A stretch of DNA of 64,000 bases. Source: an uncultured Ruminococcus sp. GTDB taxonomy: Bacteria > Bacillota > Clostridia > Oscillospirales > CAG-272. The position numbers and the translations under genes were made by a program. Of this stretch, positions 12,970-60,064 are shown piece after piece; the first letter of the stretch is position 1; every line of letters starts with the position of its first letter. The stretch is taken from the NCBI GenBank assembly GCA_964590755.1, contig CAZPYK010000001.1:16897-80896 (forward strand), given 5' to 3'. The notes beneath the pieces are model-generated. The model had not been told where the DNA came from. It saw only the letters and a program-made list of their open reading frames with translations, and searched no databases.

Positions 12970-13001
12970 ATAAGTCTCCATTCCACCGCCATATCGACGG
13001 C
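12970..13001 (-). repeat. SD-abutting GC hairpin leader module, copy A (GNAT)
   Basis: Sense strand: GCCGTCGATATGGCGGTGGAATGGAGACTTATATG. Confidence 0.8.
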
Positions 13002-13093
13002 TCAAACAGTTAATTTTAATTCATCTGCCGACAAAAAGTAAAAGGCACGTTTTTAAGGTTAATTCAGCCATTGTCAACCGAAATTATGAATAT

Positions 13094-17747: not shown

Positions 17748-18464
17748 TTATTGTTGCTCTTTTGCGCGAGATATTCGCGATGATATCTCGGAAATATACG
17801 AATCCGCATCGGTATCTGCCAGTATCGGCAAATCGGCTGCAACCGAACCGTCGTTGTAATACATAACGATATGACGATATTGAGTTCTTCCTCGGTACAC
17901 CGTCGCGCTTTGCGTTGTGTTTCTGTATTCGACAGACAATAGATCGGCATATTTTAATTCGCAAAAATTGTCACTGACATCGTCATTCAGCAGGCTGACA
18001 CGACGATTTCCGATGCATATGGTATCGTTTTTCAACAAAAATCGTGAAAAGGAGAAAACGGAAGAACGTTCACGTCCGTCGTTGCCTTTTTTGAACATAG
18101 CGGTATTATCGTCAAAATAGTATGTTTCAAATGATATCGGTTCCGAGGAATGCACGGCGGATCCGCTGCCGTAACGAAGCTCGTTTTTATATTTTCGCAC
18201 ATCGGTGCGTATGAATCTGCCGTCGAAGTCCTCTTTGAAGGCAACGCCGAGCTCTGAGGTGCAGGTGTCTATCTCGCCGTCCTTTATACGCATGGCTGAT
18301 ATTACTGTCGCCAGCGCAATTCCGAGCGCAAGTATAGGCAAGCCTATGGGAGCCGAAATGAACACCACCATAATAGCCCCTATGGCTATCAAAACAGCCG
18401 AGATCACTATCGGATAGGTTCGATTGACCTGTTCAAAATATTTTCTGTTACGCCGATAATTCAT
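17748..18464 (-). CDS. Hypothetical membrane protein (two TM segments plus a soluble domain of about 170 aa)
   Basis: ATG 18464 lies 6 nt after GGAG of module copy B. An in-frame GTG at 18548 is an alternative start. I recognise no family. Confidence 0.6.
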   Translation of the reverse strand: MNYRRNRKYFEQVNRTYPIVISAVLIAIGAIMVVFISAPIGLPILALGIALATVISAMRIKDGEIDTCTSELGVAFKEDFDGRFIRTDVRKYKNELRYGSGSAVHSSEPISFETYYFDDNTAMFKKGNDGRERSSVFSFSRFLLKNDTICIGNRRVSLLNDDVSDNFCELKYADLLSVEYRNTTQSATVYRGRTQYRHIVMYYNDGSVAADLPILADTDADSYISEISSRISRAKEQQ

Positions 18465-18497
18465 AAAAATCTCCATTCCGCCGCCATGCGGCGGCAC
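18465..18497 (-). repeat. SD-abutting GC hairpin leader module, copy B
   Basis: Sense strand: GTGCCGCCGCATGGCGGCGGAATGGAGATTTTTATG. Confidence 0.85.
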
Positions 18498-18592
18498 AAA
18501 TTTCTGCGTGAAACAGTTTTTCTCGGTTTTGTTACATTGAACTTTCACGCTAAGACCTCTCTCTGCCGCATATTTGTGCGTCGCAATAAGCT

Positions 18593-19204
18593 TTAATTCT
18601 TTTTGTTATTTGTTCCTATAGGTTCAACGACCAGAACGCCGCTCTCGCTTACAGCCACAACTCGAACATAAGCACCGGTCTTCAAAGTATCGTCCACCGT
18701 TGTTATGGCAGGATACTCGCAAAATTTCTCTTGTATCGTGATCGTTACCTTGCCGGAACCCGAGCCGTTTGCGGGAACAGGTATGTATATTTGGGCCACC
18801 TTGCCTATGGCGTTGGCGATATCCACATTACCGGAGGATTGAAGCATATACACTCCGCGCATGAGAAATGCCATACCTATAAGAGTGGCGATTCCCGCTG
18901 CGACCGCGATCGCTACCGCGACCCAATCCGGCAATGCTGTCTCAAGCAGACCGACACCCAACCACCCGGTGATGCATAGCATTGAAAGTATTCCGCGAAC
19001 CGAAAAGACAGACAGCCCGTCATCTGCCGATACGTCATCCGGCACATCATCAGGTATTCCGTCTCCATCGACATCCTCGGGCGAGTCGTCTCCCACGCCT
19101 ATCAACTGCAGTATTGTTTGCAAAACAAGAATGAGTGTGGACGGAATTGCGATCAGAGCAAATATCTGTTGAGCCAATTCAAGGCCATTCCACCAATTGA
19201 TCAT
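18593..19204 (-). CDS. NfeD-family membrane protein (YuaF-like, flotillin partner)
   Basis: N-terminal TM segments, an acidic linker, and a C-terminal OB-fold segment GKVAQIYIPVPANGSGSGKVTITIQ. It lies upstream of the flotillin gene. Confidence 0.75.
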   Translation of the reverse strand: MINWWNGLELAQQIFALIAIPSTLILVLQTILQLIGVGDDSPEDVDGDGIPDDVPDDVSADDGLSVFSVRGILSMLCITGWLGVGLLETALPDWVAVAIAVAAGIATLIGMAFLMRGVYMLQSSGNVDIANAIGKVAQIYIPVPANGSGSGKVTITIQEKFCEYPAITTVDDTLKTGAYVRVVAVSESGVLVVEPIGTNNKKN

Positions 19205-19236
19205 AATAAGCTCCCCTTCCGCGCCGTCTCGCGGCG
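19205..19236 (-). repeat. SD-abutting GC hairpin leader module, copy N (variant SD GGGGAG)
   Basis: Sense strand: CGCCGCGAGACGGCGCGGAAGGGGAGCTTATTATG. Confidence 0.7.
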
Positions 19237-19278
19237 ACAAAAATAAATTCAGAATAATACAATCTTATCATCTTTTGC

Positions 19279-19960: not shown

Positions 19961-20605
19961 TTAAATTTCAAACAATCCGGGAAGCATATCCAGAGAAGCG
20001 ATCTCAAAGTCTGCGCAAAGCGCAGGTTCGGATGGCGAATAATTACCAAACTGCCCTTGCTTTATTCTTATCGTCCTCATGCCAACCGCGCGAGCGGGAA
20101 CTATATCGTTGTCCGGTCTGTCTCCCACCATGACAGCATTATGCGCATCGCATCCCGCCAAGCGCAGTGCTTCGTAAAACAAAGAAGTATCGGGCTTTTC
20201 GGCTCCGAATTCAGCGCTGGAAATGATGATAGACAGATACTTGTCAAGCCCGAAACGGTGCAAGCGCTCGGCGGCGCCCGGGAGTTGATTGGCTATTATA
20301 CCGAGTTTGTATTTTTTTGAAAGCACGTTCAGCACGTGATCGGCTTCGGGATACACGCTTTCGCATTCTCCTGTATAAGGTATGTAGTCGGCGCCTATCA
20401 TATGGCACGCGCGTCGAAACGGCGGTGTGCCGTCAGCACCCAACTTATACATCAAAGCTTCAAATTCTTCCACACTTATCCGCTTATTGCCACGTCGAAC
20501 AGCCATATCTATTGCCAAAGCGGCTCGACGACGATGCTCATCGCTTTCGTCGATAAGCGTAAATCCCATATCAAAGAAAATCCATTTTATGTTTTTCAGA
20601 TCCAT
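19961..20605 (-). CDS. HAD-superfamily hydrolase
   Basis: Motif I IFFDMGFTLID and motif IV MVGDRPDND. ATG 20605 lies 6 nt after GGAG of module copy C. Confidence 0.8.
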   Translation of the reverse strand: MDLKNIKWIFFDMGFTLIDESDEHRRRAALAIDMAVRRGNKRISVEEFEALMYKLGADGTPPFRRACHMIGADYIPYTGECESVYPEADHVLNVLSKKYKLGIIANQLPGAAERLHRFGLDKYLSIIISSAEFGAEKPDTSLFYEALRLAGCDAHNAVMVGDRPDNDIVPARAVGMRTIRIKQGQFGNYSPSEPALCADFEIASLDMLPGLFEI

Positions 20606-20639
20606 ATCAATCTCCATTCCGCCGCCATTGCGGCGGCAC
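20606..20639 (-). repeat. SD-abutting GC hairpin leader module, copy C
   Basis: Sense strand: GTGCCGCCGCAATGGCGGCGGAATGGAGATTGATATG. Confidence 0.85.
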
Positions 20640-20758
20640 AAATTGCTCATGAAATTCACCTGTGTCGCTTGCGACAAAAATGGGGTAGGGTCCCATTTTT
20701 AAGGTAAATTTGGGCGTGAAACAGGCGCTCTTTAGATTTTGAATTATTGAACTTTCAC

Positions 20759-20790
20759 GCTAATCTCCATTCCGCCGCCGATTTACGGCG
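20759..20790 (-). repeat. SD-abutting GC hairpin leader module, copy D, preceding a 4-codon mini-ORF
   Basis: Sense strand: CGCCGTAAATCGGCGGCGGAATGGAGATTAGC, then GTG AAA GTT CAA TAA (20758-20744). Confidence 0.75.
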
Positions 20791-20809
20791 TTGAATTTAT
20801 CATGTAAAT

Positions 20810-20838
20810 ATTTTACCATACTTCAATGCTTTTTTCAA
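20810..20838 (-). promoter_or_regulatory. Sigma-A promoter of the HAD gene leader
   Basis: On the minus strand: TTGAAA, 17 nt, TAAAAT with an upstream TGg. Confidence 0.6.
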
Positions 20839-21001
20839 CTCTCTAAAACGCGCATACAGGCAATTATTTCATCGCGATCGAGGTATAGTGCGAAAATTGA
20901 ATGTTTCAAGAAGAAAAAATTCTCAGACAATATTTAACCCCCAAATCGGGCTTCGCTCGTTTTTTGTTGCAAGCGACACCGGTAAATTTCACGAGCAATT
21001 T

Positions 21002-21034
21002 GCGCCGCCGCATGGCGGCGGAATGGAGTTTATT
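21002..21034 (+). repeat. SD-abutting GC hairpin leader module, copy E
   Basis: GCGCCGCCGCATGGCGGCGGAATGGAGTTTATTATG. Confidence 0.85.
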
Positions 21035-21634
21035 ATGAACGATACATTTTTCAAGCTCGGGATACTCCCCGCCATCCTTCTTGCCGCGACTATACTGTTA
21101 GAGCCCCCGGGGGTTTCGGTGCCATCCCTGGCTGCCGCCGCAATACACGAAGGCGGACATCTTTTGGCTGCAAAAGCACTGAAAATCGAACTGCATTCAC
21201 TTAGCCTGAATCCGATCGGCGCAACTATTCACACTCGCGGAGCTCTCATATCATATAAAAAAGAATGGTTGCTGTGCTTTGCCGGTCCGTGCGCAAATCT
21301 TTTGTCCTGTGGCATAGCATATATTCTGAACGACAATTCGGAAGCTGCATACGGTACGGCAGCATTTAATTTTTTTGCCGTATCATTCATGCTTGCGATA
21401 TTAAATCTTCTTCCCATCGAAAGCTTTGACGGTGGCAGAATGATGTATTGCACGATAGGCAATTTTTTCGGACCGCGAGTCGGATTTGCGGTTCTCAGAG
21501 CCTGTTCGATAATATCTGTTTGCGGACTGTGGATGCTGTCGGTCTATCTGTTGATGCGTTGGGGAACGTCCATGTCACTGCTCGTCTTTTCATCATCGGT
21601 TTTTTGTCGCATTTTCATATGCTCCGAAAAATAA
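21035..21634 (+). CDS. M50-family (site-2 protease-like) membrane metalloprotease
   Basis: HExxH (IHEGGHLLAA) inside a TM segment and a second motif NLLPIESFDGGRM. An in-frame GTG at 20888 is an alternative start. Confidence 0.75.
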   Translation: MNDTFFKLGILPAILLAATILLEPPGVSVPSLAAAAIHEGGHLLAAKALKIELHSLSLNPIGATIHTRGALISYKKEWLLCFAGPCANLLSCGIAYILNDNSEAAYGTAAFNFFAVSFMLAILNLLPIESFDGGRMMYCTIGNFFGPRVGFAVLRACSIISVCGLWMLSVYLLMRWGTSMSLLVFSSSVFCRIFICSEK

Positions 21635-30296: not shown

Positions 30297-30327
30297 AACA
30301 GTCTCCATCCGCCGCCATACCGCGGCA
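30297..30327 (-). repeat. SD-abutting GC hairpin leader module, copy F
   Basis: Sense strand: TGCCGCGGTATGGCGGCGGATGGAGACTGTTATG. Confidence 0.75.
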
Positions 30328-30383
30328 ACATTTTTGGGGGATACGCTATCTCAGAAGCACAAATTACGCGCACGGCCGGCATC

Positions 30384-59988: not shown

Positions 59989-60064
59989 TGGTCGGAGTGA
60001 CAGGGCTCGAACCTGCGGCCTAATGGTCCCAAACCACCCGCGCTACCAACTGCGCCACACCCCG
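59989..60064 (-). tRNA. tRNA-Pro (anticodon UGG), CCA encoded
   Basis: Sense strand: CGGGGTGTGGCGCAGTTGGTAGCGCGGGTGGTTTGGGACCATTAGGCCGCAGGTTCGAGCCCTGTCACTCCGACCA. It folds by hand into a cloverleaf: 7-bp acceptor, GCGC D-stem, anticodon loop TTTGGGA, and T-loop TTCGAGC. Confidence 0.9.

What the first reader, a model, noticed from the sequence alone, without database searches (positions are those of the whole stretch)
20606..21034. Head-to-head pair of about 100-nt homologous leaders, with terminator-like hairpins, a second module copy and a 4-codon mini-ORF
The divergent HAD (minus) and M50 protease (plus) genes both carry extended versions of the module. Sense strand C is ACCTTAAAAATGGGACCCTACCCCATTTTTGTCGCAAGCGACACAGGTGAATTTCATGAGCAATTTGTGCCGCCGCAATGGCGGCGGAATGGAG. 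Sense strand E is AACCCCCAAATCGGGCTTCGCTCGTTTTTTGTTGCAAGCGACACCGGTAAATTTCACGAGCAATTTGCGCCGCCGCATGGCGGCGGAATGGAG. Each has a hairpin plus T-run that looks like an intrinsic terminator (20676-20700 and 20947-20965), then a GT(C/T)GCAAGCGAC box, then the SD hairpin. The HAD leader also starts with a further module copy (D, 20759-20790). Its SD is followed by GTG AAA GTT CAA TAA (20758-20744), a 4-codon ORF encoding MKVQ. The single extra A in the C loop (CAATGG versus CATGG) puts the homologous upstream nucleotides in different reading frames: SNLCRRN in C versus EQFAPPH in E. Conservation is therefore at the nucleotide level, not the peptide level. The layout resembles attenuation leaders: promoter, short leader ORF, terminator, then an SD-proximal hairpin. 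No mutually exclusive antiterminator is obvious to me.
Basis: partly seen in the sequence, partly recalled or inferred. Interest (0 to 1): 0.65.

Follow-up and report, generated by a model that had tools for sequence, protein, structure and literature searches.

The report
Repeat element inserted at gene starts
The two "leaders" are copies of a small, folded DNA repeat, common in gut Clostridia, that inserts two bases before a gene's start codon and brings its own ribosome-binding site, so they are not an attenuator specific to these two genes.

Summary
Two homologous leaders of about 150 nt face each other at 20608-20760(-) and 20888-21032(+). An older module (D) and a GTG-AAA-GTT-CAA-TAA mini-ORF are also present.

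The attenuator reading does not hold. The leaders belong to a dispersed repeat family found before unrelated genes in dozens of Clostridia species. One truncated scan returned at least 119 loci, and 102 downstream proteins hit 167 Pfam families.

Orthologous loci show empty sites. The window's three full copies are absent from three related species. In a his operon, strains with 92-100% identical HisA carry zero, one or two copies.

The element runs from GCGTGAAA to GGAATGGAG-ATTA and sits exactly 2 nt before the start codon. The native Shine-Dalgarno sequence (SD) stays upstream and now faces the element's GTG. That explains the mini-ORF, whose length and frame are not conserved. The element's GC hairpin plus AAUGGAG becomes the new ribosome-binding site, 6 nt from the ATG in 73 of 103 copies.

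The "terminator" hairpin is one covarying arm of a three-way junction. 32 of 52 elements lie 72 nt or less past the stop of a same-strand upstream ORF, many too close for a promoter.

No terminal inverted repeats, no autonomous copy and no published description were found. The mobilisation mechanism is unknown.

The parts
20608..20760 (-). Element C, a young, intact long-type copy (153 nt) inserted 2 nt before the HAD start codon (ATG 20605-20603). P1 is 20760-20753 / 20721-20714 and holds GTG 20758-20756. P2 is 20711-20702 / 20661-20652. P2a, the 'terminator-like' arm, is 20700-20692 / 20684-20676. P2b is 20675-20671 / 20668-20664. P3 is 20636-20630 / 20625-20619. The new SD GGAG is 20615-20612, and the right end ATTG is 20611-20608.
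   Evidence: minimum free energy -50.2 kcal/mol, z=-4.28; E=1.4e-40. The site is empty in L120, L123 and L125.
20744..20758 (-). Mini-ORF GTG AAA GTT CAA TAA. It is the left end of element C read from the former HAD SD. The start codon is conserved; the peptide is not.
20761..20790 (-). Module D, the older hairpin-plus-SD leader of HAD (CGCCG-TAAAT-CGGCG, GGAG 20768-20765, ATTA 20764-20761). It was the working ribosome-binding site before C landed in its spacer. D|C reads GGAGATTA|GCGTGAAA, the junction seen in tandem copies elsewhere.
   Evidence: E=8e-4. L120 has a diverged counterpart, CGCCGTCtttctgtGGCAGAACGGAGaaaacATG, directly before its HAD ATG.
20791..20887 (.). Native divergent promoter/5'UTR core shared with relatives. 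It contains a minus-strand promoter-like site (TTGAAA-17-TAAAAT with TG, 20838-20810) and the native M50 SD GAGG (20880-20883) plus TATA.
20888..21032 (+). Element E, a long-type copy (145 nt) inserted 2 nt before the M50 start (ATG 21035). The left end is mutated to GTGCGAAA. P1 and P2a are decayed. P3 is intact (21005-21011 / 21015-21021). The new SD GGAG is 21025-21028.
   Evidence: E=1.9e-28; z=-1.28. The site is empty in L120: gtGAGGcagata|ATG.
18467..18550 (-). Element B, a short-type copy (84 nt: P1, linker, P3 and SD) before the DUF6106-like gene (ATG 18464).
   Evidence: The empty site in L120/L121 reads aaggccttattt|ATGAATTATCGG.
12972..13088 (-). Copy A, a decayed long-type copy without P1, before the GNAT acetyltransferase gene (ATG 12969). 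P3 is weakened to CCGTCG/CGGTGG with G-U pairs.
   Evidence: E=6e-8.
19205..19253 (-). Ancient decayed right-end module (GTCGCCGC-GAGA-CGGCGCGG-AAGGGGAG-CTTATT) before the 203-aa gene (ATG 19204). It is shared with L120 and faintly with L123.
30311..30345 (-). Copy F, a right-end module (GCCGC-GGTATG-GCGGC-GGATGGAG-ACTGTT) before the 474-aa gene (ATG 30308).
   Evidence: (E=5e-3).

Best explanation
C and E, and also B, A, D, F and the copy before the ATG at 19204, belong to one family of small (about 60-175 nt), non-coding, structured insertion elements that is widespread in Clostridia.

**Shown: where the element sits.** It runs from GCGTGAAA to GGAATGGAG-ATTA. It lies in the sense orientation inside a gene's translation-initiation region, exactly 2 nt upstream of the start codon.

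**Shown: what that does to the sequence.**
- The native SD and most of its spacer stay on the left. They now face the element's own GTG, which occupies the position the native ATG had. This creates an incidental short upstream ORF (uORF).
- The left end (TA|GCGTGA) also supplies TAG and TGA stops for upstream genes that overlapped the old start.
- The right end supplies a 7-bp GC hairpin (P3) followed by AAUGGAG and ATTA. Together with the two remaining native bases, this puts a new SD 6 nt from the unchanged ATG.

**Shown: internal anatomy.** Between the ends lie P1 (GCGUGAAA/UUUCACGC, enclosing the GUG) and, in long forms, a three-way junction (P2, P2a, P2b). The 'terminator-like' hairpin is arm P2a.

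**Inferred.**
- The element is, or recently was, mobile and targets start regions rather than being filtered there by selection alone.
- Integration behaves like a reciprocal exchange between the element's right-end|left-end junction (GGAG-ATTA|GC-GTG, itself a perfect SD-N6-start region) and a host SD-N-start region.
- Its architecture keeps both flanking genes expressed, so it persists as a near-neutral passenger.
- Only the P3-plus-SD part is retained long term, because the host gene now depends on it.

**Unknown.** The enzyme that moves it.
For: **1. Dispersed family.** The pattern CCGCCGC-N2-6-GCGGCGGAATGGAG hits at least 119 stretches in one-genome-per-species GTDB contigs, and the scan was truncated. 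Almost all hits are Oscillospiraceae, Lachnospiraceae or Eubacteriales MAGs, several per MAG. In 117 of 121 matches a start codon (ATG, GTG or TTG) follows within 3-13 nt.

**2. No regulon.** 102 downstream proteins hit 167 Pfam families.

**3. Empty sites in relatives.** Sites B, C and E are empty in syntenic loci of three related species whose M50 is 73%, 61% and 57% identical. The HAD-M50 spacer is 429 nt in the window against 151, 97 and 110 nt in them.

**4. Polymorphism among close strains in a his operon.**
- L128-L137 (HisA 92-97% identical): both sites empty.
- L258 (98%): only hisF|hisIE filled.
- L060 and L261 (99-100%): hisH|hisA and hisF|hisIE both filled.
- Removing GCGTG...ATTA restores a 7-nt and a 6-nt spacer like those of the empty alleles.

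**5. Junction statistics.**
- The GGAG-to-ATG distance is 6 nt in 73 of 103 copies.
- A strict SD core lies within 16 nt left of the element in 44 of 58 copies, against 11% background, and 4-9 nt before the GTG.
- Seven upstream ORFs of at least 100 codons end in TA|G, TA|A or the TGA of GTGA. hisH, which overlaps hisA as ATGA in the empty alleles, ends at the element's TGA in L060.

**6. Repeat-family behaviour.**
- Size classes share their termini but differ inside.
- Tandem or nested copies occur: window D|C, L010, L051, L075, L103, L115.
- Young copies match the consensus, while old ones (E, A, the 19204 copy, F) keep only hairpin plus SD.
- Contigs break inside the element.

**7. Structure.** 87.9% of cells pair, against at most 49% in the slid controls. 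There are 16 pairs and 48 cells with compensatory change, reached by 0 of 500 shuffles. Independent minimum-free-energy folds of most of the 22 copies agree.
Against: - No transposase, autonomous version, terminal inverted repeats or unambiguous target-site duplication was found. 'Mobile' therefore rests on presence/absence patterns only.
- The element's termini are highly conserved across families of Clostridia, which is unusual for selfish miniature elements. It could mean a host-level function. My search pattern fixed the P3 sequence, which inflates this impression; copies found without that constraint have covarying P3 stems.
- Compensatory changes in P2, P2a and P2b show that structure is selected somewhere. 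That could be for RNA function rather than for mobilisation.
- Targeting to position -2 is inferred from the distribution of copies, not from a known mechanism.
- Only 64 kb of the source genome and 8-kb windows of the others were seen, so copies away from gene starts may be undersampled. Still, of the 13 extra profile hits lacking a perfect P3, nearly all that include the right end are followed by a start codon or by another element.
Confidence: 0.8

Rival explanations
1. Leader-peptide or terminator attenuation. Translation of the mini-ORF controls formation of the hairpin-plus-U-run terminator and so controls HAD and M50 expression.
For: An SD sits at the correct distance before a GTG whose codon lies in helix P1. 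A hairpin followed by a U-run exists in C and E. The leader folds significantly better than shuffles for C.
Against: - uORF length is 3-70 codons, in any frame, with no conserved peptide or stop position.
- The U-run of P2a is paired with an A-run, and the hairpin is enclosed by P2.
- 32 of 52 elements sit 72 nt or less past an upstream same-strand ORF, many with no room for a promoter.
- Carrier genes are functionally unrelated.
- Orthologues lack the leader.
- In E, P1 and P2a have decayed while the gene persists.
- No alternative antiterminator pairing was found.
Confidence: 0.04
2. A host-selected cis-regulatory or translation-control leader. In this reading it is a portable riboregulator that places about a hundred genes per genome under one trans-acting factor, temperature or ribosome availability. 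For example, the weak UUGU/AUGG extension of P3 could partly occlude the SD, or P1 could mask the GUG. It would spread because it is useful, not because it is selfish.
For: - Sequence conservation of P1, the AUUUGUG linker and P3 across families of Clostridia is very high.
- Compensatory changes keep P2, P2a and P2b.
- G-U pairs between UUGU and the AUGG of the SD region are invariant in 22 copies.
- The SD-ATG spacing is fixed at 6 nt.
Against: - Old copies lose P1 and P2 and keep only hairpin plus SD, so there is no long-term purifying selection at individual loci.
- Carrier genes form no coherent functional set.
- Closely related strains do without it in an essential biosynthetic operon.
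- The P3 loop is not conserved.
- The P3 extension is absent in copies found without fixing P3, for example L192.
- This rival does not exclude mobility. It only adds a function.
Confidence: 0.12
3. Untargeted insertion, or ectopic recombination between start regions, followed by selection. Copies would land anywhere, or be copied by microhomology at SD...ATGAAA, and only those that recreate a working ribosome-binding site would survive.
For: - SD-start spacers are AT-rich, and the left flank ends in TA in 41 of 58 copies, so a simple TA or A preference could enrich spacers.
- Both ends of the element resemble start regions.
Against: - The spacing peaks sharply at 6 nt (73 of 103) although 5-9 nt would work.
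- Essentially no intact copies lie elsewhere in about 0.8 Mb of flanking DNA.
- The second codon AAA is not enriched: 18% against 14% background.
- Insertion inside the hisH/hisA ATGA overlap preserves both genes, which random hits would rarely achieve.
Confidence: 0.03
4. A recent local duplication or gene conversion between the HAD and M50 leaders only.
For: The two copies are adjacent and inverted.
Against: - C is closer to copies in other genomes (E=1.4e-40 to the family profile) than to E. The C/E arms are only 77% complementary.
- At least 119 loci in other species carry the element.
Confidence: 0.01

Closest known systems
Non-autonomous bacterial repeats: MITEs (e.g. Correia elements of Neisseria), REP/BIME, and palindrome-associated elements derived from IS200/IS605 (own knowledge)
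   Same: Small, non-coding and multi-copy. Strongly folded. Subfamilies have conserved termini and variable interiors. Sites are present or absent between strains. Tandem or nested copies occur. Copies decay after insertion. Assemblies break at them.
   Different: No terminal inverted repeats and no clear target duplication. The strict sense orientation inside the SD-start spacer, 2 nt before the start codon, is a target not known to me for any of these. It carries a replacement SD at its right end and a start/stop-codon mimic at its left end. No partner transposase has been identified.
Putative mobile promoters / promoter reuse (PMC3575422, commentary on Matus-Garcia et al. 2012)
   Same: Highly similar upstream sequences in front of non-homologous genes, sometimes shared between genera.
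   Different: The unit here lies downstream of the native SD and often inside operons. It has no recognisable sigma-70 promoter. What it reuses is the ribosome-binding site, not the promoter.
Leader-peptide transcription attenuators (trp, his, erm/cat types) (own knowledge)
   Same: SD plus a short ORF, followed by a hairpin with a U-run, then the gene's ribosome-binding site.
   Different: No conserved peptide, regulatory codons or alternative pairing. The hairpin is an arm of a three-way junction. The carrier genes are unrelated. The leader is absent from orthologues.
HUH-type elements with subterminal hairpins (IS200/IS605, IS91/ISCR, Helitrons) (own knowledge)
   Same: No terminal inverted repeats and no obvious duplication. 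There is a GC hairpin about 11 nt before the 3' end. Insertion follows a short A-ending target. Insertion is strand-specific.
   Different: The left and right hairpins are unrelated. The left flank is not a fixed tetranucleotide (TA 41, CA 7, AA 4 of 58). No Y1/HUH gene was seen. This resemblance is only a lead.
Engineered insulated ribosome-binding sites (bicistronic design, hairpin insulators) (own knowledge)
   Same: An upstream SD plus a short ORF, then a hairpin-flanked second SD at fixed spacing that makes initiation independent of upstream context.
   Different: This one is natural. Its uORF usually stops long before the second SD, so there is no coupling.

Membership tests
Intrinsic terminator / transcription attenuator | GC-rich stem immediately followed by an unpaired U-tract | tested here: not met
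   The P2a stem is AAAAAUGGG/CCCAUUUUU. Its base is A-U pairs and its U-run is the 3' strand of the stem. The scan does not call a terminator at P2a of C. P2a of E is called as a weak 5-pair hairpin.
Intrinsic terminator / transcription attenuator | Mutually exclusive antiterminator structure linked to a sensor (leader-peptide codons, ligand, protein or tRNA) | tested here: not met
   Minimum-free-energy folds of most of the 22 copies give the same P1 / P2(P2a,P2b) / P3 architecture with no competing helix. The uORF is not conserved.
Intrinsic terminator / transcription attenuator | Premature 3' ends in vivo | not testable with these tools
   Needs Term-seq or Northern blots. Indirect evidence against: 32 of 52 elements lie within 72 nt of an upstream same-strand ORF's stop.
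Riboswitch / regulon-specific cis-regulatory RNA | Conserved structure with covariation | tested here: met
   16 pairs have compensatory change; 87.9% of cells pair against at most 49% in slid controls.
Riboswitch / regulon-specific cis-regulatory RNA | Association with a coherent set of genes, conserved in orthologues | tested here: not met
   167 Pfam families among 102 downstream genes. Orthologous genes lack it.
Any Rfam 15 family | Covariance-model match | tested here: not met
   The only hit at gathering thresholds in the whole window is a tRNA. At E<=10 over 20500-21150 only three chance eukaryotic small-RNA (snoRNA/miRNA/scaRNA) hits appear.
MITE (DDE-transposon derived) | Small, non-coding, multi-copy, with insertion polymorphism | tested here: met
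MITE (DDE-transposon derived) | Terminal inverted repeats | tested here: not met
   The left end GCGTGAAAGTT and the reverse complement of the right end TAATCTCCATTCC share nothing.
MITE (DDE-transposon derived) | Target-site duplication | tested here: inconclusive
   TA precedes the element in 41 of 58 copies, and the element ends in ...ATTA. But flanks of AA, CA or TT also go with ATTA, and removing GCGTG...ATTA restores the native spacer length. Any duplication is at most 2 nt.
IS200/IS605-derived or REP-type (HUH) element | Subterminal hairpins at both ends recognised by one Y1 transposase, and a fixed 4-5-nt target 5' of the left end | tested here: inconclusive
   Hairpins lie near both ends (P1, P3) but are unrelated in sequence. 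The left flank is variable apart from A at -1 (52 of 58).
IS200/IS605-derived or REP-type (HUH) element | Partner transposase gene in the same genomes | not tested
   Only 8-kb stretches around copies were available. No ORF-carrying version was found among them.

The most novel reading that the evidence does not exclude
A previously undescribed class of bacterial mobile element that homes to translation start regions. It integrates 2 nt before the start codon by an exchange between its own SD-N6-GTG end junction and the host's SD-N-ATG. It takes over the native SD for its own left-end GTG, supplies stop codons for overlapping upstream genes, and hands the host gene a standardised hairpin-insulated ribosome-binding site. 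Across gut Clostridia it would have rewritten the translation-initiation signals of on the order of a hundred genes per genome, extrapolating from at least 7 modules in 64 kb. It would be mobilised by an as yet unidentified recombinase whose target is a gene start.
Probability: 0.4. Interest if true: 0.85.

Novelty: new variant of a known kind. Interest (0 to 1): 0.72.

Why it matters
- **A new target class.** If the targeting is enzymatic, this would be a mobile element whose target is the SD-start spacer of genes in general, a specificity I know of in no other element. The recombinase responsible would be worth finding.
- **Translation signals can be swapped.** Ribosome-binding sites of many unrelated genes, including genes inside tightly coupled operons such as hisH/hisA, can be replaced wholesale by one standard cassette. 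This bears on how translation efficiency evolves in abundant gut Clostridia.
- **A ready-made expression part.** The cassette is a natural hairpin-insulated ribosome-binding site for organisms that are hard to engineer.
- **Annotation errors.** Gene callers start genes at the element's GTG. Examples are the window's 248-aa M50 call against 199-208 aa in orthologues, the 266-aa ORF that the ORF listing gives from GTG 18548, and the 265-aa hisIE call in L261.
- **Assembly errors.** Assemblies break at the repeat.
- **False regulatory calls.** Comparative hunts for regulatory RNAs will keep flagging these leaders as attenuators or riboswitch candidates.

Tried and rejected
- **Rfam.** At gathering thresholds the only window hit is a tRNA. 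At E<=10 over the locus there are only chance eukaryotic small-RNA hits.
- **Metabolite riboswitch or regulon.** Rejected because of the diversity of downstream genes.
- **Invertible promoter flanked by the inverted copies.** Considered. Rejected because the arms are only 77% alike, each is an independent insertion absent from relatives, and each includes a gene's SD.
- **CsrA-type binding (GGA in loop and SD).** The P3 loop is not conserved.
- **Microhomology on ATGAAA.** The second codon AAA is 18% against 14% background.
- **N-terminal extension.** In-frame read-through from the GTG occurs in only 3 of 57 copies, two of them in the window. It is treated as an accident and an annotation trap.
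- **Autonomous version.** No ORF starting at AGCGTGAAA plausibly belongs to the element.
- **Carriage on phages or plasmids.** One IMG/VR hit, none in INPHARED phages, none in PLSDB plasmids.
- **Literature.** No paper contains the core sequence, and keyword searches found nothing describing it.
- **Exact-protein look-up of the window's M50.** Not on record.
- **Left-end-based metagenome scan.** The pattern is nearly palindromic and returned mostly chance hairpins. Only 3-4 true elements were found.
- **Apparent third his-operon insertion in L258 (hisB|hisH).** It is a scaffold gap of Ns, not an element.
- **Strand specificity from G-U against A-C counts.** The bias is only mild outside the P3 extension (36 against 20), so RNA-level and ssDNA-level folding cannot be told apart.
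Full report
**1. The observation**

The repeat finder reports inverted arms 20629-20709 / 20932-21012 (81 nt, 77% complementary) and the SD-hairpin arms 20603-20628 / 21012-21037. The core GCGGCGGAATGGAG occurs five times in the window with at most 2 mismatches, against 0.74 expected, and no shuffle reaches five. The mini-ORF GTG AAA GTT CAA TAA (20758-20744) and copy D (20761-20790) are as described. The flanking genes are a HAD hydrolase (19961-20605, minus) and an M50 peptidase (21035-21634, plus).

**2. It is not a local feature**

Other window genes carry the same hairpin-SD module directly before their ATG:
- a DUF6106-like gene (ATG 18464);
- a GNAT acetyltransferase (ATG 12969);
- weaker copies before the genes starting at 19204 and 30308.

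Nearly all are from Oscillospiraceae, Lachnospiraceae, Ruminococcus, Eubacteriales and Anaerovoracaceae MAGs from human, ruminant, chicken and termite guts, several per MAG. Two are cultured species, Lactonifactor longoviformis DSM 17459 and Neopoerus faecalis. Four high-GC hits outside Clostridia look like chance matches in coding sequence. In 117 of 121 matches a start codon follows within 3-13 nt.

The 102 downstream proteins of at least 60 aa hit 167 different Pfam families, including enolase, FBP aldolase, DnaB, ThiG, glutamate dehydrogenase, response regulators and glycoside hydrolases. That rules out a metabolite riboswitch or a functional regulon. Rfam has no match, and no paper in the library contains the core sequence.

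**3. Anatomy of the family**

Read on the sense strand, a copy has these parts in order:
1. a host SD;
2. 2-7 nt ending mostly in TA;
3. GCGTGAAA, about 25 variable nt, then TTTCACGC (helix P1, which encloses the GTG);
4. an optional middle part;
5. TTTCA(T/C), 5-8 nt, then ATTTGTG;
6. CCGCCGC, a 3-5-nt loop, then GCGGCGG (P3);
7. AATGGAG, ATTA, two nt, then the ATG of the gene.

Size classes share the two termini but differ in the middle:
- **Short** (about 84-90 nt): window copy B.
- **Mid** (about 113-117 nt): one hairpin, GAATTTTGCC/GGCAAAATTC.
- **A class of about 141-143 nt** with an unrelated interior.
- **Long** (about 147-160 nt): window copies C and E.

In the long class the middle is a three-way junction. 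Helix P2 (AAAUUCGACC/GGUCGAAUUU) closes two arms.

Independent minimum-free-energy folds of most of the 22 long copies give this architecture. On a plain MAFFT alignment, 87.9% of pair cells are standard pairs, against at most 49% when partners are slid. 16 pairs and 48 cells show changes on both sides, and no shuffle in 500 reaches that. The compensatory changes are in P2, P2a and P2b.

Window copy C folds at -50.2 kcal/mol (z = -4.28). E has lost P1 and most of P2a (z = -1.28).

P3 was fixed by my search pattern. Copies found without that constraint have covarying P3 stems, such as GCTGCC/GGCAGC and GCCGCTG/CAGCGGC, and keep (A)ATGGAG.

**4. The leaders are insertions**

*More distant relatives.* Homologues of the window's M50 protein led to syntenic loci in three related species (M50 identity 73%, 61%, 57%). 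All have the same gene order: DUF6106-like, 200-aa gene, DUF1836, HAD, then divergently M50 and an ABC transporter. Their HAD-M50 spacers are 151, 97 and 110 nt, against 429 nt in the window. All three full window copies are missing there:

| Site | Window (filled) | L120 (empty) |
|---|---|---|
| B | gaggtctta[GCGTGAAAG...GGAGATT]tttATGAATTATCGG | aaggccttatttATGAATTATCGG |
| E | GAGGtata[GTGCGAAAA...GGAGTTTA]ttATGAAC | GAGGcagataATGAAA |
| C | inserted after module D | a diverged D-like hairpin-SD runs straight into the HAD ATG |

Three outgroups are empty at three sites, which makes gain in the window's lineage far more parsimonious than repeated precise loss. The decayed module before the 203-aa gene (ATG 19204) is shared with L120 and faintly with L123. 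It is therefore an old insertion that is eroding.

*Near-isogenic evidence.* MAG locus L060 carries two almost identical long copies in a his operon. Contigs were compared by the identity of their HisA protein:
- 92-97% identical (L128-L137): both sites empty.
- 98% identical (L258): only the hisF|hisIE site filled.
- 99-100% identical (L261, L060): both sites filled.

The junction sequences are:

| Site | Empty allele | Filled allele |
|---|---|---|
| hisH\|hisA | L258 gggaggtggaaaaATGaaactc | L060/L261 gggaggtagta[GCGTGAAAG...GGAATGGAGATTA]aaATGaaactc |
| hisF\|hisIE | L128 aaggagtaacgctATGttg | L060 aaggagtaaa[GCGTGAAAGC...GGAATGGAGATTA]ctATGttg |

Removing GCGTG...ATTA restores spacers of 7 and 6 nt, the lengths seen in the empty alleles. 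So the element lies 2 nt before the start codon, and any target duplication is at most 2 nt. The right end is ATTA whatever the left-flank dinucleotide is (TA 41, CA 7, AA 4, TT 3 of 58).

**5. Consequences of that position**

All of these are read directly from the sequences.
- **The native SD stays upstream.** A strict SD core lies within 16 nt left of the element in 44 of 58 copies, against 11% background. It now sits 4-9 nt from the element's GTG, which occupies the place of the old ATG.
- **The uORF is incidental.** Across 57 copies it is 3-70 codons long (median 13). The gene's ATG falls in frames 0, 1 and 2 relative to the GTG in 22, 22 and 13 cases. Only 3 copies are in-frame fusions.
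- **The left end supplies stop codons.** TA|GCGTGA contains TAG, TGA and GTG in the three frames. Seven upstream ORFs of at least 100 codons end in those stops. hisH overlaps hisA as ATGA in the empty alleles and ends at the element's TGA in L060.
- **The right end standardises the new ribosome-binding site.** GGAG lies 6 nt from the ATG in 73 of 103 copies.
- **The end junction is itself a start region.** The right-end|left-end junction seen in tandem or nested copies (window D|C is GGAGATTA|GCGTGAAA; also L010, L051, L075, L103, L115) is a perfect SD-N6-GTG start region. This is why I describe integration as an exchange between two start regions. That description is an inference.

**6. Why not an attenuator**

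The U-run of P2a is the 3' strand of its own stem, and P2a is enclosed by P2. No competing helix appears in the folds. 32 of 52 elements begin 72 nt or less after the stop codon of a same-strand upstream ORF, and many of these gaps (20 nt or less) leave no room for a promoter. The element contains no sigma-70-like promoter. An efficient terminator there would therefore silence the downstream cistron. Relatives do without the leader at the same genes. In E and A the upstream structure has decayed while hairpin plus SD persists. The attenuation idea is therefore not supported, although only Term-seq could exclude weak termination.

**7. What remains open**

I found none of the following:
- terminal inverted repeats;
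- an ORF-carrying version;
- meaningful carriage on phages or plasmids.

The mobilising activity is therefore unknown.

The hairpin about 11 nt from the 3' end, the lack of inverted repeats and the strand specificity recall HUH-type elements (IS200/IS605 derivatives, REP, IS91/Helitron). That is a resemblance from memory, not a tested membership.

The strong sequence conservation of the termini across families of Clostridia, and the covariation of the inner helices, show that something selects sequence and structure at the level of the propagating copies. Whether that is recognition by a recombinase on single-stranded DNA or an RNA-level role cannot be decided here. G-U pairs outnumber A-C 36 to 20 outside the P3 extension, which is only a mild strand bias.

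A host-level regulatory role (a rival at about 0.12) is not excluded, and it would be compatible with mobility.

**8. Comparison and novelty**

The element behaves like known non-autonomous repeats (MITE, REP or palindrome-associated elements). Conceptually it is close to 'promoter reuse / putative mobile promoters' (PMC3575422). Three things set it apart from the families I know:
- a target defined by the start codon (position -2 inside the SD-start spacer);
- a left end that mimics a start/stop overlap;
- a right end that supplies a replacement ribosome-binding site.

These were not found in the literature searches. I rate it a new variant of a known kind, with a substantial chance (about 0.4) that it represents a new class of start-site-homing element.

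Noticed in passing
window 20888-21634 (+) and 17748-18548 (-); L261 2685-3114: Gene callers and ORF lists start the gene at the element's GTG when the frame happens to stay open. Examples: the M50 product P0001 is 248 aa against 199-208 aa in orthologues; the ORF listing gives a 266-aa ORF from GTG 18548 where the real gene is 238 aa; hisIE in L261 is called at 265 aa against 216. These N-terminal extensions are probably annotation artefacts.
   Followed up: partly
L006 (pos 26), L013 (pos 8), L053 (both ends): Several MAG contigs begin or end inside the element. It acts as an assembly-breaking repeat, which implies a high copy number per genome.
   Followed up: no
L003, L016, L088 (Lactonifactor longoviformis DSM 17459), L127:2433-2560: A Lachnospiraceae 'mini' subfamily has the same right end but a different left part (GTAGTATAGCTTCTTGAA..., possibly promoter-like, then a short GAAAG/CTTTC hairpin). 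The single IMG/VR hit (L127) is of this type and is followed only by ATGAAAAAAAAATAA.
   Followed up: no
L016 (bin labelled Prevotella), L085 (bin labelled Coriobacteriaceae): These contigs carry Clostridia-type copies. L085 is nearly identical to L061, from a Eubacteriales MAG. They are probably mis-binned contigs.
   Followed up: no
window 18593-19240 (-): the ORF listing gives a TTG start at 19240 (215 aa). The orthologues and the decayed hairpin-SD module point to ATG 19204 (203 aa) as the real start.
   Followed up: partly
L258 480-583: The apparent 151-nt gap between hisB and hisH is a scaffold gap of Ns with duplicated flanks, not an element.
   Followed up: yes
L151, L200, L239 and many other loci: The near-palindrome AGCGTGAAA...TTTCACGCT recurs in unrelated metagenome contigs as ordinary hairpins. 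One example is a conserved hairpin before ...aaggaggttt(c/t)ATGaatt. These are unrelated to the element and show that the P1 sequence alone is not diagnostic.
   Followed up: partly
window 59992-60064 (-): A tRNA gene, the only Rfam hit in the window at gathering thresholds.
   Followed up: no
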